A DNA stretch of 31,815 bases, taken from IMG/VR virus record IMGVR_UViG_2872152978_000007. The stretch is one strand, 5' to 3'. This DNA is from a virus. Lineage: Duplodnaviria > Heunggongvirae > Uroviricota > Caudoviricetes. Within the stretch, counting starts at the first letter, position 1, and every line of letters starts with the position of its first letter. Positions 774 to 28,408 of the stretch are shown here, in pieces. The translations under genes were made by a program, and so were the position numbers. Under the pieces are notes generated by a model, which was not told the DNA's origin, searched no databases, and saw only the letters and a program-made list of their open reading frames with translations.

Positions 774-2311
774 ATGAGCAGCTCACTTCCTGACGATATC
801 AATGCACTGAAACGTCTCCTTGCCGAACAGGAGGCGCTGAACCGTGCCCTGCTGGAAAAGCTGAACGAGCGTGAACGCGAAATAGACCATCTGCAGGCAC
901 AGCTGGATAAGCTGCGCCGGATGAACTTCGGCAGCCGCTCCGAAAAAGTCTCCCGTCGTATCGCACAGATGGAAGCTGACCTGAAGGCACTTCAGAAAGA
1001 AAGTGATACCCTTACCGGTCGGGTTGACGACCCGGCCGTGCAGCGCCCGCTGCGTCAAACCCGCACCCGCAAACCGTTCCCCGAATCACTCCCCCGCGAT
1101 GAAAAACGGCTGCTGCCGGCAGCGTCATGCTGCCCGGAATGTGGAGGCTCACTGAGCTATCCGGGTGAGGATGCCGCCGAACAGCTGGAGTTGATGCGCA
1201 GCGTCTTCCGGGTTATCCGGACTGTACGTGAAAAGCATGCCTGTACTCAGTGCGATGCCATCGTGCAGGCCCCGCGCCTTCACGGCCCATCGAGCGGGGT
1301 ATCGCAGGACCGGGGCTGCTGGCCCGCGTGCTGATCTCAAAGTATGCAGAGCACACCCCGCTGTACCGCCAGTCTGAAATGTACGGCCGCCAGGGCGTGG
1401 AGCTGAGTCGTTCACTGCTGTCGGGCTGGGTGGATGCATGCTGCCGGCTACTGTCACCGCTGGAAGAAGCGCTTCAGGATTATGTGCTGACTGACGGTAA
1501 GCTCCATGCTGATGACACGCCTGTCCCGGTGCTGTTGCCAGGCAATAAGAAAACGAAGACCGGGCGGTTATGGACCTACGTTCGTGACGACCGTAACGCC
1601 GGGTCAACGCTGGCGCCGGCGGTGTGGTTCGCTTACAGCCCGGACAGAAAAGGCATCCATCCGCAGACCCATCTTGCGGGGTTCAGTGGTGTACTGCAGG
1701 CGGATGCATACGCCGGGTTCAACGAGCTGTACCGGGATGGCCGGATAACGGAAGCCGCCTGTTGGGCTCACGCCCGCCGTAAAATCCACGATGTGCACGT
1801 TCGCACCCCGTCAGCCCTGACGGAGGAAGCGCTGAAACGGATCGGCGAACTGTACGCCATCGAGGCAGAGATAAGGGGAATGACGGCGGAGCAGCGCCTT
1901 GCCGAACGTCAGTTGAAAACGAAACCGCTGCTGAAATCCCTGGAAAGCTGGCTGCGTGAAAAGATGAAAACCCTGTCGCGACACTCAGAACTGGCGAAAG
2001 CGTTCGCATACGCCCTGAACCAGTGGCCGGCGCTGACGTACTATGCAGATGATAGCTGGGCTGAGGCGGACAATAACATCGCTGAAAATGCGTTGCGGAT
2101 GGTCAGTCTGGGCCGCAAAAACTACCTGTTCTTCGGTTCGGATCATGGAGGAGAGCGGGGAGCGCTGCTGTACAGCCTGATCGGGACGTGCAAACTGAAC
2201 GGAGTGGAGCCAGAAAGCTACCTCCGCTATGTCCTTGACGTCATAGCCGACTGGCCGATAAACCGGGTCGGCGAACTGCTCCCCTGGCGCGTAGCACTGC
2301 CGACTGAATAA
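774..2311 (+). pseudogene. tnpC: IS66-family transposase TnpC, frameshifted
   Basis: Split into ORFs 774..1334 and 1250..2311; copy 2 has one intact 512-aa ORF (17870..19408). Copy 1 has a run of 4 C at 1270..1273 where copy 2 has 5 (G5 at 18908..18912 on the plus strand). Confidence 0.85.
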
Positions 2312-2348: not shown

Positions 2349-3492
2349 GCTGATGCTGAGTATTAACGGGAAAAGCGTCAGCATTGAAGTGAATTTTAAC
2401 GGTGTCGCCAGCTTCGCCGCTGCTGCAACGGCACTACAGACAGCGCTGACCGCAGCAGTGGCTACAGTGGTATTCGATACCACACAGAATGCTTTTGTCA
2501 TTACTGTCGCCGGGGCGAAACCCGGGAGTACCACGATAACGTTCGGCAGTGGATCGGCAGCAGAACTCCTGAAGATGACCAGTAACACCGGTGCGGTGAT
2601 ATCCCGGGGCGCGCCTGTATCTGATGTCCCTGACACAATGGCAGCCATTAAGGCCGCTTCCCAGCAATGGGCGGGTTTTTCCACGGTATCTGAGGTCACT
2701 GACGAGCAACACCTGGCGTTTTCTGCATGGGCAAACGGGCAGGGCAAGCGTTACTTTAATGTGGCATGGACAACCAGCGGCAACGCCAGAGTAAAAGGCA
2801 GTACTGAACACATCGCTTACCAGATAATTGCTGTCAATAACTACAGCTCTGTTGTACCTGTTTTCGCGACTGATGGTAACCGGGCTGCAGCGGTACTGGG
2901 GTATGCAGCGTGCCTTGATTTTATCCGACCAGAGGGGCGTGTATCATTCAAGTTCCGCGAGTATGAGGGGCTGGCCGCTGATGTTACCAGTGGCAGCGAT
3001 TATGATGCGCTGATCGCCGCAGGTTACAATTTCTACGGAAAATATGCGGAAAACAGTGTGGTGGAAGATTACTGGGCGGATGGCACTATTACCGGTGATT
3101 TTAAATGGCTGGACAGTTTCTGCGGGCAAATCTGGCTGAATGCCAGTTTGCAGGGGGCGGTGATCGCATTATTCAAGTCAAACCAGACGGTCCCCTACAA
3201 CAATGAAGGGCGGGCGCTGGTTGCAGCGTCAATGAGTGACGTTATCCAGCAGTACAAACGCTGGGGAGGGATCCGTGAAGGGGTGACACTGACGGAGGCG
3301 CAGAAGAAACAGATTAACAATGTTGTGGAGGCAGATGTTTCTTCAACGTTGTTTGCCACCGGCTATTACCTGTATATCGGCGATATGCTTCCCTCTTTGC
3401 GGGCAACCCGTAGCAGTCCGTCCTGTACGCTCTGGTACTGTGACGGCGGTAGTATCCAGAAACTTGTTATTGCATCCACGGAGGTCCAGTAA
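2349..3492 (+). pseudogene. Contractile tail sheath protein, C-terminal 378 codons (Mu gpL-like), separated from its N-terminus by IS66 insertion and inversion
   Basis: ORF begins immediately after the IS66 end; joins in frame through the 8-bp duplication GCTGATGC with the minus-strand N-terminal fragment 20274..20622, reconstructing a 494-aa protein; followed by a tube gene as in sheath-tube operons. Confidence 0.8.
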
Positions 3493-3677
3493 ATGTCGGG
3501 TAACAACAACACCATCACTGCGGCGGATGCCATTATCACGCTGACAGTGAATAATCTGTATCCCTCCGGCGTACGACTTCAGGGATTTGCAACAGATAAC
3601 GTTTATGGCACCGATCCACTGGTACTGGCGGAAACTGCCCGCGGTATTGACGGTAAACTGTCGGTAATGACTCCAAC

Positions 3678-4073
3678 TTACTGATAGTGTTTTATGTTCA
3701 GATAATGCCCGATGACCTTGTCATGCAGCTCCACCGATTTTGAGAACGACAGTGACTTCCGTCCCAGCCTTGCCAGATGTTGTCTCAGATTCAGATTATG
3801 TCGCTCAATGCGCTGAGTGTAACGCTTGCTGATAACGTGCAGCTTTCCCTTCAGGCGTGATTCATACAGCGGCCAGCCATCCGTCATCCATACCACGACC
3901 TCAAAGGCCGACAGCAGGCTCAGAAGACGCTCCAGTGTGGCCAGAGTGCGTTCACCGAAGACGTGCGCCACAACCGTCCTCCGTATCCTGTCATACGCGT
4001 AAAACAGCCAGCGCTGACGTGATTTAGCACCGACGTAGCCCCACTGTTCGTCCATTTCAGCGCAGACAATCAC
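3678..4073 (-). CDS. insB: IS1 InsB
   Basis: [31 protein letters not shown]...KHYQ. Confidence 0.9.
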
Positions 4074-4099
4074 ATCACTGCCCGGTTGTATGCGCGAGG

Positions 4100-4375
4100 T
4101 TACCGACTGCGGCCTGAGTTTTTTAAGTGACGGAAAACCGTGTTGAGGTCAACGCCCATAATGCGTGCACTGGCGCGACATCCGACGCCATTCATGGCCA
4201 TATCAATGATTTTCTGGTGCGTACCGGGCTGAGAGGCGGTGTAAGTGAACTGTAGTTGCCATGTTTTACGGCAATGAGAGCAGAGATAGCGCTGATGTCC
4301 GGCAGTGCTTTTGCCGTTACGCACCACGCCTTCAGTAGCGGAGCAGGAAGGACATCTGATGGAAATGGAAGCCAC
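4100..4375 (-). CDS. insA: IS1 InsA
   Basis: [43 protein letters not shown]... Confidence 0.9.
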
Positions 4376-4713
4376 GCAAGCACCTTAAAATCACCATCAT
4401 ACACTAAATCAGTAAGTTGGCAGCATTACCAAACTGTCCGCGGGATTTGTGTACAGCAACATTATCCAGACGTTTCATATCATGCCGGATTCCCCCAGCC
4501 GGGATATTTTTGATACCTGGTCAACCACATCCGGGCCAGTCGGGCTGTATTCCGTTGTAACGCTGTCGTCCTGCTTCCGGCGATTGGCCGTAAATATACC
4601 TGCGTGAATGGCGTACTCAAACAATGGAAAGCGCTGCCTGATGCAGCTCGTACGTTGCAGCCAGGGCAGGCGGTTATTGAGTGGGAAACCATTACTCCGG
4701 AGGTTTTTAACTG

Positions 4714-5118
4714 ATGGCCCGTAAAGAGAAATTTATCACTATTGAAGGTCAGGGACGGGATAAGGGCAAGGTATTTCATCTTACCGAAATGTCTGCCTCA
4801 CAGGCGGAATGGTGGGCGATGCGTGCCATTATGGCAATGGGGCGTGGTGGCGTGGAGTTACCGGATGATGTTCGTAGTCTGGGGATGGCTGCGCTTGCCC
4901 TTGAAGGGCTGAAAGCATTATCGAAAATTCCGCCTGATGAGGCGCGTCCGTTGATGGATGAAATGATGGACTGTGTGCAGTTTGTTCCCGATCCGAAAAA
5001 ACGCAGCATCCGGAGACCGCTTGTTGAAGAGGATATTGAAGAAATCATTACCCGTCTTAATCTGCGTGCGGAGGTCTTTAAGCTGCATGTGGATTTTTTC
5101 GCTACCGTCGTCAGCTAG
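4714..5118 (+). CDS. Tail assembly chaperone (between tube and tape measure)
   Basis: 134-aa ORF; start overlaps the upstream stop (TGATG); position and size fit the conserved chaperone of contractile/long-tailed phages. Confidence 0.55.
   Translation: MARKEKFITIEGQGRDKGKVFHLTEMSASQAEWWAMRAIMAMGRGGVELPDDVRSLGMAALALEGLKALSKIPPDEARPLMDEMMDCVQFVPDPKKRSIRRPLVEEDIEEIITRLNLRAEVFKLHVDFFATVVS
5094..5100 (+). other. Candidate -1 programmed ribosomal frameshift slippery heptamer T_TTT_TTC
   Basis: Zero-frame codons GAT TTT TTC; the -1 frame is open from here to 5342 (about 83 codons) and overlaps the tape-measure start, the G/GT-type arrangement. Confidence 0.45.
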
Positions 5119-5325
5119 ATATCCCCCCGCGTTATCTCGACCCCGACAGACCGTTCGGGGTGGTGGATTACGTTAATGTTCCCCGTACCATTGCGACCGT
5201 TATCTCCTCCGGTAAGGCTTCAAAAGCTGAACTGGATTCTGTCCTTGGTGTGCAGGACTTATGGGATCTGCTGGAAATAATTCATGTGGATGCCCATAAC
5301 GAACAGGTGATACAGGAGAACAGAA

Positions 5326-7346
5326 ATGGCGCAGGTACTTGATGAGCTTGTTCTGTCCCTCGGGATTGATGACAGGGACTTTACTGCCGGGGAACAGGCA
5401 GTACATGCTGCCCTTAACCGGCTCACGACGGTGATGGAAGGTGTCGCTGACACATTCAGTCAGGGACAGAAGAAAACCAGTGAATCACTGGAAAAAACCG
5501 GAAAAGATGCTGATAAAACGGCCCGTCGAATGGAAGATGCCGGGAAACGGGCGTCCCGTTTTTTTTCAGGAATCCGTAGCGAGATTCTGGCTCTTGCGGG
5601 TGTCAGTCTGACGCTGGGGGGGCTGAAGAACCTGGTAACAGGTTTTGCCCGTGATCTGAACCGTCTGTCCGTGGAATCCGATGCTTTTGGCATGAAGGCC
5701 AGAAATCTGGACGGATGGTTACGGGCTGCGCGGGCAAATAATGTTGATGAAGGGGAAATGTCTGGGGCATTTTCCCGGCTTGCAAATGCAAAAGCGGCCT
5801 TCAGAGCCGGAAGGTCCTTTGATCCTGTGTTACAGGATTTGTTTCAGGTTGCAGCCAGGGCGGGCATTAGTGTTGATTTAAATACTGACAGCACTGAAGC
5901 CATCATGCGCAAGCTGGCGGTTATTTTTCCGCGACTGACAAAGTCCGAACAAACTGCCTACGGCAACGCGCTGGGCTTCAGTTATGCCGGACAGCAGTTT
6001 CTTGGCTCCGGTCATGCGCTGAAAGATGTGGACGAATTTACTTCCCGTTCGCAGGTTACGCCGGGGCGTACAGCGCTGGCCCGTAAGCTACGAAAAGAGC
6101 TTGTTGAGCTCGATCAGACCTGGTCCGGCATCGGGATGACGATTAGCACCGCGTTGATGCCGTACGCGCTGAAGCTCAGCCACTGGCTGGAGACACTCGG
6201 TGACTGGATGCAGCAACATCCGGAGGAAGTGAACAGGTTTATCACCACATTTCTGAATGACGTTGAGTCAGTGGCCTCCCTAGCGAATAAGGCTGCCGGA
6301 GAACTGGGGGCTGGCAGAATGTCATTATTACGCTGATCGGGCTGAAAGTGGCGTCATGGGTGCGGGGGCTGACAAAAGCCCTCAGTGGCCCCGGAGGCCT
6401 TCTTTTTGCGATAACGGCGCTTTACCCGGTTGTTGACGGATTACTGACATCCATTGTTGGCAGGGAAAATAAGGACTGGCTGGATTCACATGGTTTTTTC
6501 TGGGCTTCAGACGGGACTTTCTTTTTCAATAAGAAAGAGATGGAGACGTATCAGACAAAACTGGATGCCGGAGAAAAGCCTGGCAACATCACCCGGGCAC
6601 AATCACCCACAGTATGGCAGCAGGGCATGCTGGATACTCAGGCTTCTCAGGCAACCGGGAGGGAAGCAGCCTTCGGTGAATCCTGGCTACAGGGTATGCG
6701 TGCGACGCAGGAAAAACTCGGTAATGCCATGCAAAACCGCCAGCGACCGACGAAGACCGGGGAAGCCCTGTTAGGCTGGCTGCAACCGAAACTGTCTCAA
6801 CTGGAGGAAAAATATAACCTGCCGCCCGGACTGCTGCGCAGCGTTGCGATCACCGAATCCCGTGGTAATCAGTTTGCCGTCTCACCTGCTGGTGCGATGG
6901 GACTGTTTCAGTTCATGCCGAAGACGGCCAGTGAATTTGGTCTGAGGGGGAACGATGCCTTTGATCCCGAAAAAGCCGCTGATGCCGCCGCGAGAAAACT
7001 TGGTGGCCTGATACGTTTTTTTCATGGCGATCTGGCTAAGGCTCTGGCGGCATATAACTGTGGAGAGGGAAATGTTCAGCGTAAGGGACTGGCTGCTGCT
7101 CCGGAGGAGACCCGCAACTATATTCCGCGGGTGCTGGCGAACCTGCCTTATCCGGGTGCGGCAATGGCCATACGGTCGCTCCATCCTGCGCCTGTATCGC
7201 AGTCCACCGTAACGGAAACCACGCATATCGGGACACTGAATGTCACCACAACGTCGGACAATGTGAAGGGTATTACCGATGACGCACGTCGGCGTATCAC
7301 GAATTCGGCGCTTGTGTCGGTTTATTCCAGCGGGGTAACAGGATGA
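5326..7346 (+). pseudogene. Tail tape measure protein with C-terminal lytic transglycosylase (SLT) domain; frameshifted near 6290..6320
   Basis: ORFs 5326..6336 and 6348..7346 in different frames; downstream frame is open back to a stop at 6288..6290; G5 run at 6306..6310; SLT motif LLRSVAITESRGNQFAVSPAGAMGLFQFMP...AYNCGEGNV in the second part. Confidence 0.65.
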
Positions 7347-11688: not shown

Positions 11689-12594
11689 CTATATTTCCAG
11701 ACATCTGTTATCACTTAACCCATTACAAGCCCGCTGCCGCAGATATTCCCGTGGCGAGCGATAACCCAGCGCACTATGCGGATGCCATTCGTTATAATGC
11801 TCGAACGCCTCTGCAAGGTTCTTTGCTGCCGTTAACCCGTCTGGTTTGGGCATGATACTGATGTAGTCACGCTTTATCGTTTTCACGAAGCTCTCTGCTA
11901 TTCCGTTACTCTCCGGACTCCGCACCGCCGTGTTCTTCGGTTCAAGTCCCAACATCCGGGCGAACTGGCGTGTTTCATTAGCCCGGTAGCATGAACCATT
12001 ATCCGTCAGCCACTCCACTGGAGACGACGGAAGATCGTTGCCGAAGCGGCGTTCCACCGCTCCCAGCATGACGTCCTGTACTGTTTCACTGTTGAAGCCG
12101 CCGGTAGTCACCGCCCAGTGCAGTGCCTCACGATCACAGCAGTCCAGCGCGAACGTGACACGCAGTCTCTCTCCGTTATCACAGCAGAACTCGAACCCGT
12201 CAGAGCACCATCGCTGATTGCTTTCTTTCACGGCCACTCTGCCTGTATGTGCCCGTTTCGATGGCGGTACAGCAGGCTTTCGCTCAAGCAACAGCGCATT
12301 CTGGCGCATGATCCGGTAAACACGTTTGGCATTGATCGCAGGCATACCATCAAGTTCTGCCTGTCTGCGAAGCAGCGCCCATACCCGACGATAACCATAC
12401 GTGGGCAGCTCTCCGATAACATGGTGTATACGGAGAAGCACATCCGTATCATCAGTGTGACGACTGCGGCGGCCATCCATCCAGTCATCAGTTCGTCTGA
12501 GAATGACGTGCAACTGCGCACGCGACATCCGGAGACAACGGCTGACTAAGCTTACTCCCCATCCCCGGGCAATAAGGGCGCGTGCGCTATCCAC
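11689..12594 (-). CDS. insD: IS2 transposase InsD (orfB)
   Basis: 301-aa ORF ...[39 protein letters not shown]... Confidence 0.9.
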
Positions 12595-12917
12595 TTTTTT
12601 GCCCGTCCATATTCAACGGCTTCTTTGAGGTGTTCATTTTCCATCGTTTTCTTGCCGAGCAGGCGCTGGAGTTCTTTAATCTGCTTCATGGCGGCAGCAA
12701 GTTCAGAGGCAGGAACAACCTGTTCTCCGGCGGCCACAGCAGTAAGACTTCCTTCCTGGTATTGCTTACGCCAGAGAAATAACTGGCTGGCTGCTACACC
12801 ATGTTGCCGGGCAACGAGGGAGACCGTCATCCCCGGTTCAAAGCTCTGCTGAACAATTGCGATCTTTTCCTGTGTGGTACGCCGTCTGCGTTTCTCCGGC
12901 CCTAAGACATCAATCAT
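12552..12917 (-). CDS. insC: IS2 InsC (orfA)
   Basis: [56 protein letters not shown]... Confidence 0.9.
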
Positions 12918-14706: not shown

Positions 14707-14884
14707 CAATGTTGCATTTAAAAAATATTACTGCGGGCAATCCGAAAACCGTGGAACAATATCAGCTGACAAAACAATATGATGTCACCTGGCTTTTTTC
14801 GGAAGACGGAAAAAACTGGTATGAAGAGCGGTGATGCTGCCAACTTACTGATTTAGTGTATGATGGTGTTTTTGAGGTGCTCCA

Positions 14885-15160
14885 GTGGCTTCTGTTTCTA
14901 TCAGCTGTCCCTCCTGTTCAGCTACTGACGGGGTGGTGCGTAACGGCAAAAGCACTGCCGGACATCAGCGCTATCTCTGCTCTCACTGCCGTAAAACATG
15001 GCAACTGCAGTTCACTTACACCGCTTCTCAACCCGGTACGCACCAGAAAATTATTGATATGGCCATGAATGGCGTTGGATGCCGGGCAACTGCACGCATT
15101 ATGGGCGTTAGCCTCAACACGATTTTACGTCACTTAAAAAACTCAGGCCGCAGTCGGTAA
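14885..15160 (+). CDS. insA: IS1 InsA
   Basis: [40 protein letters not shown]... Confidence 0.9.
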
Positions 15161-15204
15161 CCTCGCGCATACAGCCGGGCAGTGACGTCATCGTCTGCGC
15201 GGAA

Positions 15205-15582
15205 ATGGACGAACAGTGGGGATACGTCGGGGCTAAATCGCGCCAGCGCTGGCTGTTTTACGCGTATGACAGGCTCCGGAAGACGGTTGTGGCGCACGTC
15301 TTCGGTGAACGCACTATGGCGACGCTGGGGCGTCTTATGAGCTTGCTGTCACCCTTTGACGTGGTGATATGGATGACGGATGGCTGGCCACTGTATGAAT
15401 CCCGCCTGAAGGGAAAGCTGCACGTAATCAGCAAGCGATATACGCAGCGAATTGAGCGGCATAACCTGAATCTGAGGCAGCACCTGGCACGGCTGGGACG
15501 GAAGTCGCTGTCGTTCTCAAAATCGGTGGAGCTGCATGACAAAGTCATCGGGCATTATCTGAACATAAAACACTATCAATAA
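15205..15582 (+). CDS. insB: IS1 InsB
   Basis: [65 protein letters not shown]... Confidence 0.9.
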
Positions 15583-16053
15583 GTTGGAGTCATTACCTGA
15601 AGAGCTGAAGAATTTCGCCAGCGACACAATTAAAATAACTTACACCGGAGACGGTCGCGTGGTGTGGGTCGGTAAGGATGTGACAGGCATTGAACCCCGT
15701 AACGCCAGTGTTATTGAAGTTCCTGATATTACCGCCAACCGCCGCATTACCGCGCCGGGTTACTGGTTTTACCGCAATGATGAATTTGTCTTTGACTACA
15801 GACTCAAAGCGGAAGATGAGCGTGATGCCCTTCTGGCTCAGGTCAGTGCCCGGACAGGGGAATGGGAAGAAGACCTGCTGCTGGGGCTAATCAGCGACGA
15901 AGACCGGGAAAAACTGAAAGCGTACCGCATTTACGCGAAATCGCTGCAGGCGATGGATTTCAGTGTCATCACTGATAAAACCTCATACAACGCCATTGAA
16001 TGGCCCGCCTCTCCGGAAATTTCTTCCTGATTTAATTTATCGCGAGAAAAACT

Positions 16054-17869: not shown

Positions 17870-19408
17870 TTATTCAGTCGGCAGTGCTACGCGCCAGGGG
17901 AGCAGTTCGCCGACCCGGTTTATCGGCCAGTCGGCTATGACGTCAAGGACATAGCGGAGGTAGCTTTCTGGCTCCACTCCGTTCAGTTTGCACGTCCCGA
18001 TCAGGCTGTACAGCAGCGCTCCCCGCTCTCCTCCATGATCCGAACCGAAGAACAGGTAGTTTTTGCGGCCCAGACTGACCATCCGCAACGCATTTTCAGC
18101 GATGTTATTGTCCGCCTCAGCCCAGCTATCATCTGCATAGTACGTCAGCGCCGGCCACTGGTTCAGGGCGTATGCGAACGCTTTCGCCAGTTCTGAGTGT
18201 CGCGACAGGGTTTTCATCTTTTCACGCAGCCAGCTTTCCAGGGATTTCAGCAGCGGTTTCGTTTTCAACTGACGTTCGGCAAGGCGCTGCTCCGCCGTCA
18301 TTCCCCTTATCTCTGCCTCGATGGCGTACAGTTCGCCGATCCGTTTCAGCGCTTCCTCCGTCAGGGCTGACGGGGTGCGAACGTGCACATCGTGGATTTT
18401 ACGGCGGGCGTGAGCCCAACAGGCGGCTTCCGTTATCCGGCCATCCCGGTACAGCTCGTTGAACCCGGCGTATGCATCCGCCTGCAGTACACCACTGAAC
18501 CCCGCAAGATGGGTCTGCGGATGGATGCCTTTTCTGTCCGGGCTGTAAGCGAACCACACCGCCGGCGCCAGCGTTGACCCGGCGTTACGGTCGTCACGAA
18601 CGTAGGTCCATAACCGCCCGGTCTTCGTTTTCTTATTGCCTGGCAACAGCACCGGGACAGGCGTGTCATCAGCATGGAGCTTACCGTCAGTCAGCACATA
18701 ATCCTGAAGCGCTTCTTCCAGCGGTGACAGTAGCCGGCAGCATGCATCCACCCAGCCCGACAGCAGTGAACGACTCAGCTCCACGCCCTGGCGGCCGTAC
18801 ATTTCAGACTGGCGGTACAGCGGGGTGTGCTCTGCATACTTTGAGATCAGCACGCGGGCCAGCAGCCCCGGTCCTGCGATACCCCGCTCGATGGGCCGTG
18901 AAGGCGCGGGGGCCTGCACGATGGCATCGCACTGAGTACAGGCATGCTTTTCACGTACAGTCCGGATAACCCGGAAGACGCTGCGCATCAACTCCAGCTG
19001 TTCGGCGGCATCCTCACCCGGATAGCTCAGTGAGCCTCCACATTCCGGGCAGCATGACGCTGCCGGCAGCAGCCGTTTTTCATCGCGGGGGAGTGATTCG
19101 GGGAACGGTTTGCGGGTGCGGGTTTGACGCAGCGGGCGCTGCACGGCCGGGTCGTCAACCCGACCGGTAAGGGTATCACTTTCTTTCTGAAGTGCCTTCA
19201 GGTCAGCTTCCATCTGTGCGATACGACGGGAGACTTTTTCGGAGCGGCTGCCGAAGTTCATCCGGCGCAGCTTATCCAGCTGTGCCTGCAGATGGTCTAT
19301 TTCGCGTTCACGCTCGTTCAGCTTTTCCAGCAGGGCACGGTTCAGCGCCTCCTGTTCGGCAAGGAGACGTTTCAGTGCATTGATATCGTCAGGAAGTGAG
19401 CTGCTCAT
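17870..19408 (-). CDS. tnpC: IS66-family transposase TnpC (intact, 512 aa)
   Basis: Single [52 protein letters not shown]... Confidence 0.9.
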
Positions 19409-19456
19409 ACCGGGTATATTACCAGGCTCATTCAGCGTCGACCAGGATAAAGAGGC

Positions 19457-19804
19457 TTACAACATAGTCAGGGACGTAAGCAGTCTTTTAGGCTGCCGCC
19501 AGTCGATACCTTCAAGGAGCATCGCCAGCTGTGCCGGTGTGAGGAACACTTTGCCATCCCGGGCTGACGGCCAGGCGAAGCGGCCGCGCTCCAGCCGTTT
19601 GGTCAGCAGACACAGTCCATCGCCGGTAGACCAGAGGAGCTTTACCTGACTGCCATTACGCCCACGGAAGATAAAAACGTGACCTGACATCGGATCGTCT
19701 TTCAGCGTCGTCTGCACCTTTGCCGCCAGGCCGTTGAAGCCATTTCTCATATCGGTGATACCGGCAACCAGCCAAATTTTGGTCCCGGAAGGTAACGGGA
19801 TCAT
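19457..19804 (-). CDS. tnpB: IS66-family TnpB
   Basis: 115-aa ORF identical to 378..725. Confidence 0.9.
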   Translation of the reverse strand: MIPLPSGTKIWLVAGITDMRNGFNGLAAKVQTTLKDDPMSGHVFIFRGRNGSQVKLLWSTGDGLCLLTKRLERGRFAWPSARDGKVFLTPAQLAMLLEGIDWRQPKRLLTSLTML

Positions 19805-20202
19805 CGCTTCAGTTCCTGTATCAGCAGAGTCAGGAGCTTTTCGCTGACATTGCCATTGAAGCGGAGCGTCCCGTGCCGGAACGTTACCTCACAGCTGATA
19901 CTGAGGGTTTCCGGATCCTCTGCGAGCGATTCTGGCTGTTCGGCAGCTGCATCGAGAGTCACAGGAAGTAGCTGGGGGCTCTCTGAAGAAGGTAATAGCA
20001 GCTTTCCCTCGCGCCATTGTTGTCGCCATTTGAACAACAGATTGGCGTTAATGCCATTTTCAAGAGCAAGTTTTGAGATGGATATCCCGGGTTCACAGGA
20101 GGCAGCAACGAGCTGCTGTTTAAATTCGGGAGGATAATTAGGGCAGCCTTTTCGCCTGCCGGGATTCACATTTTTCTGCATATCTGACACTTTGGTTCCC
20201 AC
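19801..20202 (-). CDS. tnpA: IS66-family TnpA
   Basis: 133-aa ORF MGTKVSDMQKNVNPGRRKGCPNYPPEFKQQL... Confidence 0.85.
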   Translation of the reverse strand: MGTKVSDMQKNVNPGRRKGCPNYPPEFKQQLVAASCEPGISISKLALENGINANLLFKWRQQWREGKLLLPSSESPQLLPVTLDAAAEQPESLAEDPETLSISCEVTFRHGTLRFNGNVSEKLLTLLIQELKR

Positions 20203-20273: not shown

Positions 20274-20622
20274 GCATCAGCGTGCCGGAAAGTTTTTGTA
20301 GCTGTTCAACAGTCGCGCCCTTAAACGAACCGCTACGTAACCAGGCCGCCGATGGGGCAGGACTGAAACGGGAAAACAACAATTGCCCCGGCGTCCTGGT
20401 GGCATTTTTGAAGCCCTGGAAATAAAGCTGAGCGCGTGCGTACTCATCGGATAATGCACCAAAATACGCGGCCACATCATCCGGAGAGGAAAACGGAACC
20501 ACAGTGCCGACCGGAAGTAACGGATTACTGGTCAACAGCAGGCCGTTAAGATCGACGGCATTACCCGCCACAGCCAGCACACCGGGATTTATCTGTACAT
20601 CTTTACTGAGTGGAATTGGCAT
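20274..20622 (-). pseudogene. Contractile tail sheath protein, N-terminal 116 codons
   Basis: ATG at 20622 with GGAGG upstream; MPIPLSKDVQINPGVLAVAGNAVDLNGLL...KLSGTLM reads directly into the IS66 terminus; the 8 bp at 20274..20281 (GCATCAGC) are the exact reverse complement of 2349..2356. Confidence 0.8.
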
Positions 20623-21148
20623 TATCAGCCTCCGTTGTCCGGGTGATCACGTTGTCAAAAAACATCAGGGAAGTTGTGACCACAGGGTTAATCTGCATCT
20701 GAATATCAAGCGTCCAGCGCGGTTCATACTGTTGCTGACCGTTGGGGAATGTGGTGTTAAAGGGCTCTGAGCAATACAGCGGGGAAATCAGCCCACCGCC
20801 CTGCCGGAAAAGCCGTACGGAAAATTCAGACCGGAAAAGCGTTGCCAGCACCTGAGCGTTATCTGCCGCGTGAGGGCCGTAGAAATCAAGCTGGCAACGC
20901 CATTTTGTGGTACGGGTGATATGCTGAGAGCCCTCACCAGCCTGCGCTGGCGCAGAATATGCCACTACCGCAGTGGATAATCCGGTAACATCAATGCCCG
21001 TCATGGTGATGAAATTCCCCTGAGGCATCGGGACCTGGTTCTGCTGCGTTCGTTCAATCCCGGCATCAGAAAAAAGCCCCCGGTGATAATCACCGAGGGC
21101 CTGATAAAGAGCGCTTTCCGTAACGGAGAGGGTCACACCTGAAGGCAT
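20603..21148 (-). CDS. Phage morphogenesis-module protein immediately upstream of sheath
   Basis: 181-aa ORF overlapping the sheath start, same strand and operon. Confidence 0.5.
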   Translation of the reverse strand: MPSGVTLSVTESALYQALGDYHRGLFSDAGIERTQQNQVPMPQGNFITMTGIDVTGLSTAVVAYSAPAQAGEGSQHITRTTKWRCQLDFYGPHAADNAQVLATLFRSEFSVRLFRQGGGLISPLYCSEPFNTTFPNGQQQYEPRWTLDIQMQINPVVTTSLMFFDNVITRTTEADNANSTQ

Positions 21149-21498
21149 ACAATAACCCTCGTCCAGTCAGGCCAGATTTCCAGTACCTCAATCACCAGCC
21201 ACGTTTCATCGCCAATAACAAATTTATCGCCTCCCTGTTGCCGGGCACGGTTAAGCCCGCACCAGTTACCATCGGTATACAATGTGGCGAAAACTCCCTG
21301 CTGGTTAAGATTATCAAGATGACGTAAATCAGCCTGGGTGACAGCCTGCTTTTGCCCCCTGACGGAAACCGGATCTTCATACTCAGGTACGCGGGAATAA
21401 TCTGCCTGCTGTGTACTCCCGCGGGAACGATAAACCAGCGCGTCTGTAAAGGGATTTACCCGACGTACTGCGCCGGAAACAATACCGTGAAAGTTCAT
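21133..21498 (-). CDS. Phage structural-module protein (unassigned)
   Basis: 121-aa ORF overlapping both neighbours. Confidence 0.45.
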   Translation of the reverse strand: MNFHGIVSGAVRRVNPFTDALVYRSRGSTQQADYSRVPEYEDPVSVRGQKQAVTQADLRHLDNLNQQGVFATLYTDGNWCGLNRARQQGGDKFVIGDETWLVIEVLEIWPDWTRVIVCLQV

Positions 21499-21749
21499 TT
21501 TTTGCCCCCGTCTACAGAATAATCAACGCTGTCCATCATATGTCCGGTTTCAATAAGCGGGTTGTTAAAACCCTTTTGCCGGGCAGTGGATGCAGCGTTG
21601 GACGGACTTTCCCAGTCGCGAACAGACATCTGCAACTGCCCTTTGATATGTTCTCCCATACACACCAGAGCGGTCGCAGTATCAAAATCATTCGCCCGTA
21701 ATAAGGTCGCCATTTTTTCGCCCCATTCGGGACTTTTATGTTCGATCAT
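21495..21749 (-). CDS. Phage structural-module protein (unassigned)
   Basis: 84-aa ORF with ATGA-type overlap. Confidence 0.45.
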   Translation of the reverse strand: MIEHKSPEWGEKMATLLRANDFDTATALVCMGEHIKGQLQMSVRDWESPSNAASTARQKGFNNPLIETGHMMDSVDYSVDGGKK

Positions 21750-22078
21750 CTTACGGAAGAACGGACGGGGGGAATGGTGACCGTGTGCTCAGGAATAACC
21801 ACATCCTGAACAAAATTCCCTTTACCGGCTTTGACAAAGCGGTGCCCGGTTTCTCCCGTTTTTTCGTTATAGCGAAAGTGGAGCGTCTGCTCACGGGCGG
21901 GTATGACCGCTCTTCCACCAAACTCCTGAACTGCGGCAATATAAGCCACTGACGTACCGTCAGGGTAAGTTGCTCCCTCAAGAAAACCCACTTTGAGTTT
22001 TTTACCCAATGAAAGGTTCGCGGCAACCTGTTTCAGCTTCTGCCGGAACTGTTTGCCACCTGTGACTTTATTTACCAT
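21746..22078 (-). CDS. Phage virion morphogenesis / head-tail joining-like protein
   Basis: Likely start [41 protein letters not shown]... at 22078; the longer track ORF (to 22366) is an upstream out-of-frame extension. Confidence 0.45.
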
Positions 22079-22544
22079 CGACGCCCCCTCCCGTATCCCC
22101 GGTAATAATGCCCCGGATATCGCGAAGGTGCCCCCCGGAATGATACTGCATTGAGCGGTATGGCGCTGTCGCCTGCCAGTAGTCAGCACCCCAGGGGGTC
22201 TGGAGATACCACCACGACGCATCATTACTGCCGCTATTATCCACCGATACCGATACCGATACCGATACCGATACAGAACCTTCCGACGCACTGGTGATAC
22301 GCCCCACCAGACCAGCCTGCCCGTCTCTCCCGTTTCCCAGCCCCCGCAATGCGCACAGATGCGCAACCAGCAGGAACAGAAGCTGTTCCCGCTCCTTCAG
22401 GTCGGTAACCGGACTGTCGTCCGTGTTATCCAGGTACAACGCGGTCGCCCGGTTAAACACCGCCGTCAGTAGCTCCGGTGTCACCGTGGAAAACTCCGGG
22501 TACAGACTGACAAACATCCGACAGTCAAACGTCACCGTACCCAT
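22068..22544 (-). CDS. Phage protein carrying an internal (Ser-Val)n repeat
   Basis: 158-aa ORF; ...[19 protein letters not shown]... encoded by the hexanucleotide tandem repeat at 22244..22273. Confidence 0.5.
22244..22273. repeat. Perfect hexanucleotide tandem repeat (CCGATA)5 within a coding sequence
   Basis: ccgataccgataccgataccgataccgata read directly from the sequence; in frame, so copy-number change keeps the reading frame. Confidence 0.95.
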
Positions 22545-22549
22545 AGCGT

Positions 22550-23841
<1,292 letters not shown>

Positions 23842-24580: not shown

Positions 24581-25749
<1,169 letters not shown>

Positions 25750-26159: not shown

Positions 26160-26174
26160 GGTGATGACTCCAAC

Positions 26175-26570
26175 TTACTGATAGTGTTTTATGTTCAGAT
26201 AATGCCCGATGACCTTGTCATGCAGCTCCACCGATTTTGAGAACGACAGTGACTTCCGTCCCAGCCTTGCCAGATGTTGTCTCAGATTCAGATTATGTCG
26301 CTCAATGCGCTGAGTGTAACGCTTGCTGATAACGTGCAGCTTTCCCTTCAGGCGTGATTCATACAGCGGCCAGCCATCCGTCATCCATACCACGACCTCA
26401 AAGGCCGACAGCAGGCTCAGAAGACGCTCCAGTGTGGCCAGAGTGCGTTCACCGAAGACGTGCGCCACAACCGTCCTCCGTATCCTGTCATACGCGTAAA
26501 ACAGCCAGCGCTGACGTGATTTAGCACCGACGTAGCCCCACTGTTCGTCCATTTCAGCGCAGACAATCAC
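26175..26570 (-). CDS. insB: IS1 InsB
   Basis: Same protein as copy A InsB; the track ORF extends upstream in the InsAB' frame. Confidence 0.85.
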
Positions 26571-26596
26571 ATCACTGCCCGGTTGTATGCGCGAGG

Positions 26597-26872
26597 TTAC
26601 CGACTGCGGCCTGAGTTTTTTAAGTGACGTAAAACCGTGTTGAGGCCAACGCCCATAATGCGTGCACTGGCGCGACATCCGACGCCATTCATGGCCATAT
26701 CAATGATTTTCTGGTGCGTACCGGGCTGAGAGGCGGTGTAAGTGAACTGTAGTTGCCATGTTTTACGGCAATGAGAGCAGAGATAGCGCTGATGTCCGGC
26801 AGTGCTTTTGCCGTTACGCACCACGCCTTCAGTAGCGGAGCAGGAAGGACATCTGATGGAAATGGAAGCCAC
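26597..26872 (-). CDS. insA: IS1 InsA
   Basis: [40 protein letters not shown]... Confidence 0.9.
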
Positions 26873-27251
26873 GCAAGCACCTTAAAATCACCATCATACA
26901 CTAAATCAGTAAGTTGGCAGCATTACCCCATTGCTGGCATAAATTCAGTTTCGAATATTCAGTTAATTAAAGTTCGTGTGCCATCTTGTCTTTTTCGGCA
27001 CAAGCTGCACCGCAATATTTTCGTTTCTTTCTGGCAATCATGTTTCCATGCATATAAATAAGCTCGCCAGTAAAAGCTTTTTCAGGTAAAAACTGTTTAT
27101 TGCAGAGATGGTAATCACATTGTATTAAATCCGGGTCACCTTTTTGCTGGAGAATTTTTCTGATTCTCCACAGCCATTTTTTAATCCCGGTATGACTGAT
27201 GGTCTGCCTGAGGTGTACTGGCAATAGCGGACACTACCATTTGTTCTTTTT

Positions 27252-28105: not shown

Positions 28106-28408
28106 TTAACGCGTATTTTTCAGCGACTCCTGTGCAAAATACGCTGTTGCTTTTTTTAATATATCTCGCTCAAGGCGAGCTTCATTTAACGCCTTACGCA
28201 GTTGCAGAATTTCAGATTCCAGTTCAGCCACCGTGCGGGAACCAGGAGTACCGAGCCCTTTTCTGGCGGCGGTAACCCATTGTCCTAAAGTGCCTTCAGG
28301 AAGGGATAATCGGGAAGCGCCTTCACTGATCGAAAGTTGATTTTCAAGAACCGTTCTGACAGCTTCGGCTTTGAACTCTTTAGAGTAACGTTGGTTTTTT
28401 CTGCTCAT
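28106..28408 (-). CDS. IS600 OrfA
   Basis: MSRKNQRYSKEFKAEAVRTVLENQLSISEGASRLSLPEGTLGQWVTAARKGLGTPGSRTVAELESEILQLRKALNEARLERDILKKATAYFAQESLKNTR. Confidence 0.9.
   Translation of the reverse strand: MSRKNQRYSKEFKAEAVRTVLENQLSISEGASRLSLPEGTLGQWVTAARKGLGTPGSRTVAELESEILQLRKALNEARLERDILKKATAYFAQESLKNTR

What the first reader, a model, noticed from the sequence alone, without database searches (positions are those of the whole stretch)
4714..5342. Candidate programmed -1 frameshift (G/GT-type) in the tail assembly chaperone
Between tube and tape measure, the chaperone ORF (4714..5118) contains the slippery heptamer T_TTT_TTC in the correct register at 5094..5100. The -1 frame is open from there for about 83 codons to 5342 and overlaps the tape-measure start at 5326. 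This is the conserved arrangement of tail-chaperone frameshifting in dsDNA phages, apparently retained despite the surrounding decay.
Basis: partly seen in the sequence, partly recalled or inferred. Interest (0 to 1): 0.45.

Follow-up and report, generated by a model that had tools for sequence, protein, structure and literature searches.

The report
Tail chaperone programmed -1 frameshift site
The gene between the tail-tube and tape-measure genes of this decayed prophage carries a real, deeply conserved ribosome slip site (T_TTT_TTC) that should make a longer second protein, as in phages lambda and P2; the mechanism is textbook, but databases annotate this gene family wrongly.

Summary
ORF 4714..5118 (134 aa) is a tail assembly chaperone (phrog_1932, E=3e-59; model fold nearest to HK97 TAC, YqbN and PLE ORF19). 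It lies between the sheath/tube genes and an SLT-domain tape measure.

T_TTT_TTC sits in register at 5094..5100. The zone where the 0 and -1 frames are both open is only 34 nt. The -1 frame then runs 80 codons to 5342 and predicts a 209-aa G-T fusion.

In 56 of 59 non-redundant related loci (32-100% protein identity; Enterobacterales, Pseudomonas, Aeromonas, Acinetobacter, Vibrio, Burkholderia, Acetobacteraceae) an in-register X_XXY_YYZ heptamer lies at the homologous codons. GAT TTT is invariant in 67 of 69 distinct genes, while neighbouring codons vary synonymously.

The -1 product is conserved from its first codon. dN/dS is 0.20 in the stretch annotated as intergenic. No start codon or Shine-Dalgarno is conserved for the downstream ORF. 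No stimulatory RNA structure was found, as reported for P2.

Verdict: a lambda G/GT- and P2 E/E+E'-type programmed -1 frameshift, not annotated in any record examined. In this window it is a relic: identical to an intact relative, but tube, sheath and tape measure are broken. Interest is low.

The parts
4714..5118 (+). Tail assembly chaperone gene (G-like), 134 aa, the 0-frame product. Its ATG overlaps the tube stop TGA (4712..4714). GGAGG Shine-Dalgarno at 4699..4703.
   Evidence: phrog_1932, E=3e-59; TAC-like fold; SD pairing -10.2 kcal/mol
5094..5100 (+). Slippery heptamer T_TTT_TTC, in register. TTT is the P-site codon and TTC the A-site codon, both read by tRNA-Phe.
   Evidence: Homologous heptamer in 56 of 59 non-redundant loci. 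GAT TTT invariant in 67 of 69 genes. U_UU.U_UU.C belongs to the H_HH.U_UU.Y class, among the most efficient motifs in E. coli (PMC4066793).
5082..5115 (+). The only zone where the 0 and -1 frames are both open (34 nt). A shift must happen here to join them.
5100..5342 (+). -1 frame extension (T-like domain): 80 codons plus TGA. C5100 is read twice. Predicted G-T fusion is residues 1-129 of G plus 80 aa, 209 aa in all, with junction ...HVDFF/RYRRQLDIPP...
   Evidence: phrog_3976, E=5e-32; conserved from the first codon; dN/dS 0.20 for codons 7-20
5160..5342 (+). The 60-aa GTG ORF that PGAP annotates as a separate gene in intact relatives; other NCBI records name it 'transcription elongation factor GreA'. 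Here it is reinterpreted as the 3' part of the extension.
   Evidence: No Shine-Dalgarno (+0.4 kcal/mol).
5326..7346 (+). Tape measure / lytic tail protein with an SLT domain. A pseudogene here: a 1-nt deletion in a G-run at about 6306 splits it into 5326..6336 and 6348..7346.
3493..4714 (+). Tail tube gene (E217_Gp32 family), broken by IS1 (3663..4430, 8-bp target duplication AAACTGTC) and by a 1-nt deletion at about 4531.
2353..3492 (+). Tail sheath gene (DUF3383), missing its 5' 339 nt next to an IS66-family transposase gene (1250..2311).

Best explanation
This is the programmed -1 ribosomal frameshift site of a myovirus tail assembly chaperone, of the lambda G/GT and P2 E/E+E' type.

Most ribosomes read 4714..5118 and release the 134-aa chaperone. 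A minority shift back one base, with tRNA-Phe on UUU in the P site and tRNA-Phe on UUC in the A site. Both re-pair with UUU UUU, and reading resumes at CGC (5100). This yields a 209-aa protein: the first 129 residues of the chaperone plus an 80-residue C-terminal domain.

No RNA stimulator is involved, so the shift is probably low-level and constitutive.

By analogy with lambda (inferred, not shown here), the short form and the shared N-terminal part coat the tape measure protein. The extension recruits the tube protein. Neither ends up in the virion.

- **Shown:** the sequence anatomy, its deep conservation, coding constraint in the -1 frame, absence of an independent start, and a TAC-like fold.
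- **Inferred:** the shift itself, its efficiency, and the roles of the two products.

In this window the site is a recently orphaned relic, because tube, sheath and tape measure are disrupted.
For: **Anatomy.** In-register T_TTT_TTC lies inside a 34-nt two-frame overlap, followed by an 80-codon -1 extension that ends 17 nt into the tape-measure gene. About 0.05 such heptamers are expected by chance, and the same scan otherwise finds only IS3-family frameshift sites.

**Conservation.** Twelve phage records, 12 bacterial genome loci and 80 viral contigs were examined. In 56 of 59 non-redundant loci an in-register heptamer lies at the homologous codons: TTTTTTC 43, TTTTTTA 7, TTTTTTT 3, TTTTTTG 1, GGGTTTT 2.

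**Synonymous constraint.** GAT TTT is invariant in 67 of 69 distinct genes. Elsewhere in these genes GAT is 69% of Asp codons and TTT 45% of Phe codons. The flanking His and Val codons vary freely.

**The -1 frame is coding from the slip site.** The motif [RQH]xRRxLDIPP is conserved from its first codon. dN/dS is 0.20 in the 14 codons between the G stop and the annotated GTG, against 0.145 further downstream.

**No independent start.** No start codon is conserved. Shine-Dalgarno pairing is weak or absent, median -1.85 kcal/mol against -5.9 and -7.4 for the flanking genes. Database entries start the ORF at inconsistent places, giving 47-100 aa.

**Literature.**
- U_UU.U_UU.C falls in the most efficient E. 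coli motif class (PMC4066793).
- P2 shifts at TTTTTTG without a downstream structure (PMC3091744).
- G-T frameshifting is widespread in long-tailed phages (PMC5009743).
Against: - No expression, proteomic or reporter data exist for this family or this copy.
- No stimulatory element was found, so efficiency is unknown and could be very low.
- Neither ORF matches any Pfam or NCBIfam family, including the Pfam tail-chaperone families.
- A few relatives have a plausible start with a good Shine-Dalgarno in the -1 ORF: Aeromonas phage 56 at -9.3 and Pantoea PA-1 at -8.1 kcal/mol.
- One Klebsiella prophage has a degenerate site, GCT TTT GTA.
- In this window the partner genes are broken, so the site cannot serve tail assembly here.
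Confidence: 0.88

Rival explanations
1. The downstream ORF is a separate small gene translated from its own start (GTG 5160, as PGAP annotates it). The heptamer is then an incidental consequence of the Asp-Phe-Phe codons.
For: RefSeq annotates 5160..5342 (equivalent) as a 60-aa CDS. Many database entries exist for it as a stand-alone protein. Aeromonas phage 56 and Pantoea PA-1 have in-frame starts with good Shine-Dalgarno pairing.
Against: - GTG 5160 has no Shine-Dalgarno (+0.4 kcal/mol).
- Nine of 36 arrangements have no start codon in the stretch, and called starts are inconsistent.
- The stretch upstream of every putative start is under purifying selection in the -1 frame (dN/dS 0.20) and is conserved up to the heptamer.
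- No -1-frame stop interrupts it, apart from a few loci with indels (L026, L052, L094).
- Synonymous positions of GAT TTT are frozen.
Confidence: 0.04
2. The same G-T protein is made by transcriptional slippage. RNA polymerase would add one U in the U6 run, giving an mRNA that encodes ...DFFRYRR... in a single frame. A non-frameshifting mechanism has been suggested for T4-like chaperone genes (title of Vladimirov et al. 2022, cited in PMC12846349; paper not read here).
For: The site is a homopolymer (T6, or T7 in some relatives). The protein product would be identical to the ribosomal one, so protein data cannot separate the two (inference). Homopolymer indels at this run and at the nearby C6 run appear in database sequences.
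Against: The conserved feature is the heptamer register, not the run length. Burkholderia phiE131 has G_GGT_TTT with only four T, and Aeromonas phage 56 has five T. Efficient polymerase slippage usually needs runs of about 8-9 (own knowledge). In 67 of 69 genes the run starts exactly at a third codon position, a constraint that matters only to the ribosome.
Confidence: 0.06
3. Chance: an accidental heptamer and an accidentally open frame with no function.
For: Heptamers of this form occur at about 0.5% of codon positions.
Against: About 0.05 are expected in the overlap zone. The arrangement recurs in 56 of 59 non-redundant loci down to 32% protein identity, with a conserved -1 protein.
Confidence: 0.01

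Closest known systems
Phage P2 E / E+E' tail chaperone frameshift (Christie et al. 2002; Xu, Hendrix & Duda 2004)
   Same: Contractile-tail phage. [quoted passage not shown] No downstream RNA structure (PMC3091744). One relative here even uses TTTTTTG (L102).
   Different: No detectable sequence similarity to P2 E. The sizes differ: 134/209 aa here, 91/142 aa in P2. The sheath and tube belong to other families (DUF3383 / E217_Gp32). The usual Z base is C, so both tRNAs are tRNA-Phe.
Phage lambda G / G-T (Levin, Hendrix & Casjens 1993; Xu et al. 2013, 2014)
   Same: Same logic. An abundant short chaperone and a rare frameshift-extended form share an N-terminus. The extension ends at the tape-measure start. 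The heptamer acts without a stimulator. Products are expected to be absent from virions (PMC5009743).
   Different: Lambda is a siphovirus and slips on G_GGA_AAG with tRNA-Lys in the A site. There is no sequence similarity. The G:GT ratio and the binding partners are measured for lambda and only inferred here.
TAC-N / TAC-NC -1 frameshift proposed for Vandenendeviridae and Andersonviridae (Pseudomonas phage Adele paper, PMC12846349, 2025)
   Same: The same kind of comparative argument for myoviruses: a conserved GTTTTT motif at the end of the short chaperone gene, an uninterrupted -1 frame across regions annotated as intergenic, and a downstream 'hypothetical protein' reinterpreted as the C-terminal domain.
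   Different: Different phage families and a different protein family. That paper does not cover the family studied here (phrog_1932/phrog_3976: AP22-like Obolenskvirus, GF-2, Aeromonas phage 56, PA-1, enterobacterial prophages).
IS3-family orfA-orfB -1 frameshift (three copies in this same window)
   Same: In-register heptamer (A_AAA_AAG or A_AAA_AAA) near the end of the upstream ORF, with a long -1 extension.
   Different: IS3 sites normally rely on a downstream hairpin or pseudoknot, and the fusion product is the active enzyme. The chaperone site has no structure, and both products are expected to be needed.

Membership tests
G/GT-type tail assembly chaperone with programmed -1 frameshift (Xu, Hendrix & Duda 2004) | Gene pair lies between the major tail/tube gene and the tape measure gene | tested here: met
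   Order is sheath (DUF3383/phrog_205), tube (PF22764/phrog_1964), chaperone, extension, SLT-domain tape measure (phrog_2013/2276). Seen in the window and in the intact relative L001.
G/GT-type tail assembly chaperone with programmed -1 frameshift (Xu, Hendrix & Duda 2004) | Downstream ORF overlaps the 3' end of the upstream ORF in the -1 frame | tested here: met
   -1 frame open 5082..5342, 0-frame stop at 5116.
G/GT-type tail assembly chaperone with programmed -1 frameshift (Xu, Hendrix & Duda 2004) | Slippery X_XXY_YYZ heptamer in 0-frame register inside the overlap | tested here: met
   T_TTT_TTC at 5094..5100, codons GAT TTT TTC.
G/GT-type tail assembly chaperone with programmed -1 frameshift (Xu, Hendrix & Duda 2004) | Arrangement and slip site conserved among divergent relatives | tested here: met
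   56 of 59 non-redundant loci, 32-100% identity. Synonymous positions frozen.
G/GT-type tail assembly chaperone with programmed -1 frameshift (Xu, Hendrix & Duda 2004) | Downstream ORF lacks its own translation start and is coding right up to the slip site | tested here: met
   No conserved start, weak Shine-Dalgarno. -1 protein conserved from its first codon, dN/dS 0.20 upstream of the annotated start. A few relatives have a possible internal start.
G/GT-type tail assembly chaperone with programmed -1 frameshift (Xu, Hendrix & Duda 2004) | Both the short and the frameshifted protein are made, at a fixed ratio, and both are needed for tail assembly | not testable with these tools
   Needs proteomics, a reporter assay or genetics in an intact relative.
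Tail assembly chaperone fold (HK97 TAC 2OB9-like) | Structural similarity of the short product to solved chaperones | tested here: met
   [not shown]
Pfam / NCBIfam tail assembly chaperone sequence families | Significant profile match | tested here: not met
   No Pfam or NCBIfam family at E<=0.1 for either ORF. No PDB sequence match. Membership rests on PHROGs only: phrog_1932, with the extension in phrog_3976 'unknown function'.
Stimulated -1 frameshift signals (dnaX, IS3, retroviral type) | Stable hairpin or pseudoknot 5-9 nt downstream, or an SD-like element 6-17 nt upstream of the heptamer | tested here: not met
   Folding z-scores are -0.3 and -0.9, and the nearest hairpin starts 28 nt downstream. 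RNAalifold predicts 0 conserved pairs in 15 relatives. GGAGG at 5071..5075 lies 18 nt upstream and is not conserved.
Transcriptional slippage sites | A long conserved homopolymer (about 8-9 or more), with run length rather than codon register conserved | tested here: not met
   The run is T6 here, and T4 and T5 in phiE131 and Aeromonas phage 56, where the heptamer becomes G_GGT_TTT in the same register.

The most novel reading that the evidence does not exclude
A whole, widely distributed chaperone family (phrog_1932 plus phrog_3976) uses an unannotated, stimulator-free U6-type -1 frameshift. The family includes Acinetobacter Obolenskvirus phages (some cited in phage-therapy literature), Edwardsiella GF-2, Aeromonas phage 56, Pantoea PA-1 and prophages of Enterobacterales, Burkholderia and Acetobacteraceae. 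Its second ORF is systematically mis-called, often as 'transcription elongation factor GreA'. A stronger version would be that the product arises wholly or partly by polymerase slippage on the T-run rather than by the ribosome. That would link this family to the open question raised for T4-like chaperone genes.
Probability: 0.45. Interest if true: 0.3.

Novelty: new member of a known kind. Interest (0 to 1): 0.2.

Why it matters
The main value is for annotation. A 209-aa G-T protein should replace the separate 'hypothetical protein' or 'GreA' entry in this prophage type and in more than 100 related phage genomes. These include Acinetobacter Obolenskvirus phages, a genus that appears in phage-therapy literature.

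It also adds a clean, deeply conserved case of a U_UUU_UUY heptamer working without a stimulator. The natural variants (TTTTTTC/A/T/G, GGGTTTT, and one degenerate site) could be compared in a reporter assay.

It does not change our understanding of tail assembly. In this window the site is a non-functional relic.

Tried and rejected
- **Pfam and NCBIfam searches of both ORFs:** no hits.
- **PDB sequence search with a 20-sequence profile:** only noise.
- **Near-identity search of the phage collection:** found only IS1. Relatives had to be reached by protein search.
- **Downstream stimulatory structure:** single-sequence folds were not better than shuffles, and the consensus fold of 15 relatives gave zero pairs. 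Rejected.
- **Upstream SD-like stimulator:** GGAGG at 5071..5075 is 18 nt away and is just the Ala-Glu-Val codons, not conserved in relatives. Rejected.
- **AF2 model of the 209-aa fusion from a single sequence:** pLDDT 39.5, unusable. No structural statement is made about the extension.
- **Natural in-frame G-T fusions or annotated joins:** none among the 120 best chaperone homologues (all 107-140 aa), the 34 extension homologues (47-100 aa) or the 12 phage records examined.
- **phrog_18181:** this 170-aa family matches the extension at its C-terminal end. It may be a fused form but could not be inspected.
- **Literature search for a prior description in this family** (DUF3383, Obolenskvirus, AP22, Bcep781): nothing found in the held library. 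This is not proof of absence.
- **Ribosome collision at the stop codon 15 nt downstream:** considered and set aside, because 6 codons is shorter than a ribosome footprint (inference).
Full report
**1. Observation**

The sequence is exactly as described.
- An ATG at 4714, preceded by GGAGG at 4699..4703, opens a 134-codon ORF that stops at TAG 5116..5118.
- Near its end the 0-frame codons are GAT TTT TTC (5092..5100), so T_TTT_TTC at 5094..5100 is in the X_XXY_YYZ register.
- The -1 frame has a TAA at 5079..5081 and is open from 5082 to TGA 5340..5342.
- The two frames can therefore be joined only within a 34-nt zone, and the heptamer sits in it.
- After a slip the next codon is CGC at 5100. 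This predicts a 209-aa fusion with junction ...KLHVDFF/RYRRQLDIPP...
- The extension ends 17 nt inside the next gene (ATG 5326, AGGAG at 5314..5318).

In-register heptamers occur at about 0.5% of codon positions in long ORFs of this window, so about 0.05 are expected in the overlap zone.

I scanned the whole window for an in-register heptamer near an ORF end with a -1 extension of at least 50 codons. It returned four sites: this one and three IS3-family orfA/orfB sites on the minus strand (A_AAA_AAG at 25492..25498 and 12594..12600, A_AAA_AAA at 28151..28157). These serve as positive controls.

**2. Context**

The window is an IS-riddled prophage.
- The upstream genes are a DUF3383 sheath (2353..3492, missing its 5' end next to an IS66-family transposase gene) and a tube gene of the E217_Gp32 family (3493..4714).
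- The tube gene is interrupted by IS1 (3663..4430, 8-bp target duplication) and carries a 1-nt deletion at about 4531.
- The downstream gene is a 673-aa-type tape measure / lytic tail protein with an SLT domain. It is split here by a 1-nt deletion in a G-run at about 6306.

Eight complete E. coli genomes carry the region over at least 80% of the query at 99.7-99.8% identity. One of them, FDAARGOS_943 (locus L001), was examined in detail and holds the intact module, next to ipaH3.

The stretch 4714..5342 is nucleotide-identical to that intact copy. The site is 'retained' because decay is recent, not because this copy is under selection.

In the intact relative, PGAP annotates the chaperone as 'hypothetical protein' and the extension as a separate 60-aa GTG ORF (equivalent to 5160..5342).

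**3. Identity of the short protein**

There is no Pfam, NCBIfam or PDB sequence match. The protein does match phrog_1932 'tail assembly chaperone' end to end (E=3e-59). The extension matches phrog_3976, of unknown function (E=5e-32).

Foldseek against viral models gives proteins named tail assembly chaperone, and AB1gp01 of an Acinetobacter phage (E down to 7e-8). The fold evidence is modest but consistent.

**4. Comparative test**

Relatives were collected from three sources:
- 12 phage records out of 116 with a match: Pantoea PA-1, Burkholderia phiE131, Pseudomonas Amjad_SA and Orisa01, Aeromonas phage 56, a Klebsiella prophage, Edwardsiella GF-2, Acinetobacter AP22 and phiAC-1, a Vibrio phage, a faecal contig and Ralstonia Bakoly;
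- 12 bacterial genome loci: Serratia, Xenorhabdus, Pantoea, Winslowiella, Burkholderia and Acetobacteraceae;
- 80 viral contigs.

Of 59 non-redundant loci, 56 have an in-register slippery heptamer at the homologous codons, inside the zone where both frames are open. The counts are TTTTTTC 43, TTTTTTA 7, TTTTTTT 3, TTTTTTG 1 and GGGTTTT 2. The -1 extension is usually 56-80 codons (34-41 in the Acetobacteraceae loci, and shorter in a few loci with indels).

The three exceptions are:
- a locus with a truncated chaperone gene;
- a Klebsiella prophage with GCT TTT GTA but an open, conserved -1 frame;
- the most distant relative, Ralstonia Bakoly, which has a different layout.

The codons GAT TTT are invariant in 67 of 69 distinct genes, and the other two have G_GGT_TTT. 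The adjacent His and Val codons vary synonymously. Elsewhere in the same genes GAT is 69% of Asp codons and TTT 45% of Phe codons. The nucleotide sequence itself is under selection, not only the peptide.

**5. Is the downstream ORF a gene of its own?**

No, for four reasons.
- The -1 frame protein is conserved from its very first codon after the heptamer ([RQH]xRRxLDIPP...), well upstream of any annotated start.
- For the 14 codons between the chaperone stop and the PGAP GTG, Nei-Gojobori dN/dS is 0.20. It is 0.145 for the annotated ORF (synonymous sites are near saturation, so the values are rough).
- Nine of 36 distinct arrangements have no ATG, GTG or TTG in that stretch. Where one exists, pairing to the anti-Shine-Dalgarno is weak: median -1.85 kcal/mol against -5.9 for the chaperone and -7.4 for the tape measure, and +0.4 for GTG 5160.
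- Database entries begin the ORF at many different places (47-100 aa), and many are named 'transcription elongation factor GreA', a name with no domain support.

Two relatives, Aeromonas phage 56 and PA-1, do have a start with a good Shine-Dalgarno. Some independent initiation cannot be excluded there.

**6. Mechanism**

No stimulatory structure exists.
- The 90 nt downstream fold no better than shuffles (z=-0.3, and z=-0.9 for 181 nt), and the nearest hairpin starts 28 nt away.
- RNAalifold finds no conserved pair in 15 relatives.
- The GGAGG 18 nt upstream is not conserved.

The absence of a downstream structure matches P2, whose site is TTTTTTG (PMC3091744). From my own knowledge lambda also needs none.

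U_UU.U_UU.C belongs to the H_HH.U_UU.Y class, among the most efficient heptamers in E. coli, and shifts above 0.1% without a stimulator (PMC4066793).

The best explanation is a tandem slip of two tRNA-Phe from UUU UUC to U UUU UU. This would give a low, fixed proportion of the 209-aa G-T protein.

The roles of the two products are inferred from lambda (PMC5009743). There the chaperone body binds the tape measure and the extension recruits the tube protein.

**7. Rival explanations**

*Transcriptional slippage* on the T-run would give the same protein. It is disfavoured because the conserved feature is the codon register, not run length. phiE131 keeps only four T and Aeromonas phage 56 five T, both as G_GGT_TTT. 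Only cDNA sequencing can settle it.

*Independent initiation* and *chance* are addressed above.

**8. Comparison with the known, and novelty**

This is the classic conserved chaperone frameshift of long-tailed phages (Xu, Hendrix & Duda 2004). It is closest in form to P2 E/E+E'.

In the records examined (12 phage records, RefSeq E. coli, 154 database proteins) the fusion is never annotated. I found no paper describing it for this family. An analogous proposal was made in 2025 for Vandenendeviridae and Andersonviridae (PMC12846349).

I therefore class it as a new member of a known kind. Interest is low: the finding is correct, but its value is mainly for annotation.

**9. Dead ends**

The single-sequence AF2 model of the fusion was unusable (pLDDT 39.5). 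No natural in-frame fusions were found. phrog_18181, a 170-aa family that matches the extension at its C-terminus, could not be inspected.

Noticed in passing
window 3663..4430 (and 3655..3662 / 4431..4438): A 768-bp IS1 sits inside the tail tube gene, flanked by an 8-bp target duplication AAACTGTC. Two more IS1 copies lie at 14830..15597 and 26160..26928. Each contains an A_AAA_AAC heptamer, the motif of the known IS1 insA-insB' frameshift (4118 -, 15136 +, 26615 -).
   Followed up: partly
window ~6306 and ~4531: There are single-base deletions relative to the intact E. coli prophage. One, in a G-run, splits the SLT-domain tape measure into 5326..6336 and 6348..7346. The other is in the 3' part of the tube gene.
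   Followed up: yes
window 25492..25498 (-), 12594..12600 (-), 28151..28157 (-): Three IS3-family orfA/orfB pairs carry in-register A_AAA_AAG or A_AAA_AAA heptamers with -1 extensions of about 300 codons. Apart from the chaperone site, they were the only sites that the frameshift scan returned.
   Followed up: partly
window 5160..5342 and database proteins P0002, P0005-P0016 and others: The extension ORF is deposited in NCBI as 'transcription elongation factor GreA' in many Escherichia, Salmonella and Serratia records, with starts that give 47-100 aa. No Pfam domain supports the name. It looks like a propagated misannotation.
   Followed up: partly
L001 11839..12285 (window 3493..4714): PGAP names the 148-aa gene directly after the sheath 'phage tail fiber protein', via Pfam PF22764 E217_Gp32. 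By position and size it is the tail tube.
   Followed up: partly
window 5123..5128 (C6 run) and 5094..5099 (T6 run): Database variants have C5 (P0001) or C7 (L026) in the linker, or T5 in the slip run (Sodalis, P0003). Each puts the extension in a different frame relative to the chaperone. They are either sequencing errors at homopolymers or real inactivating mutations in prophages.
   Followed up: no
L003 2114..2605; L007 864..1421: Burkholderia phiE131 carries an HNH homing endonuclease between the extension and the tape measure. The Klebsiella prophage ST15-VIM1phi2.1 has a Rha regulator gene between tube and chaperone, a split tape measure, and a degenerate slip site (GCT TTT GTA).
   Followed up: no
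window 20274..22895 (-) and 17870..20202: Head and neck genes of the same prophage (L001 8098..10702) lie inverted about 17 kb downstream, next to a complete IS66 element. The prophage has been rearranged, probably by IS-mediated inversion.
   Followed up: no
[not shown]
   Followed up: no
L022-L025 (Acetobacteraceae loci): In Acetobacter, Komagataeibacter and Gluconobacter prophages the 0-frame continues 81-102 nt past the heptamer, against 15 nt in most others. The short product there has a long extra tail, while the -1 product stays conserved.
   Followed up: no
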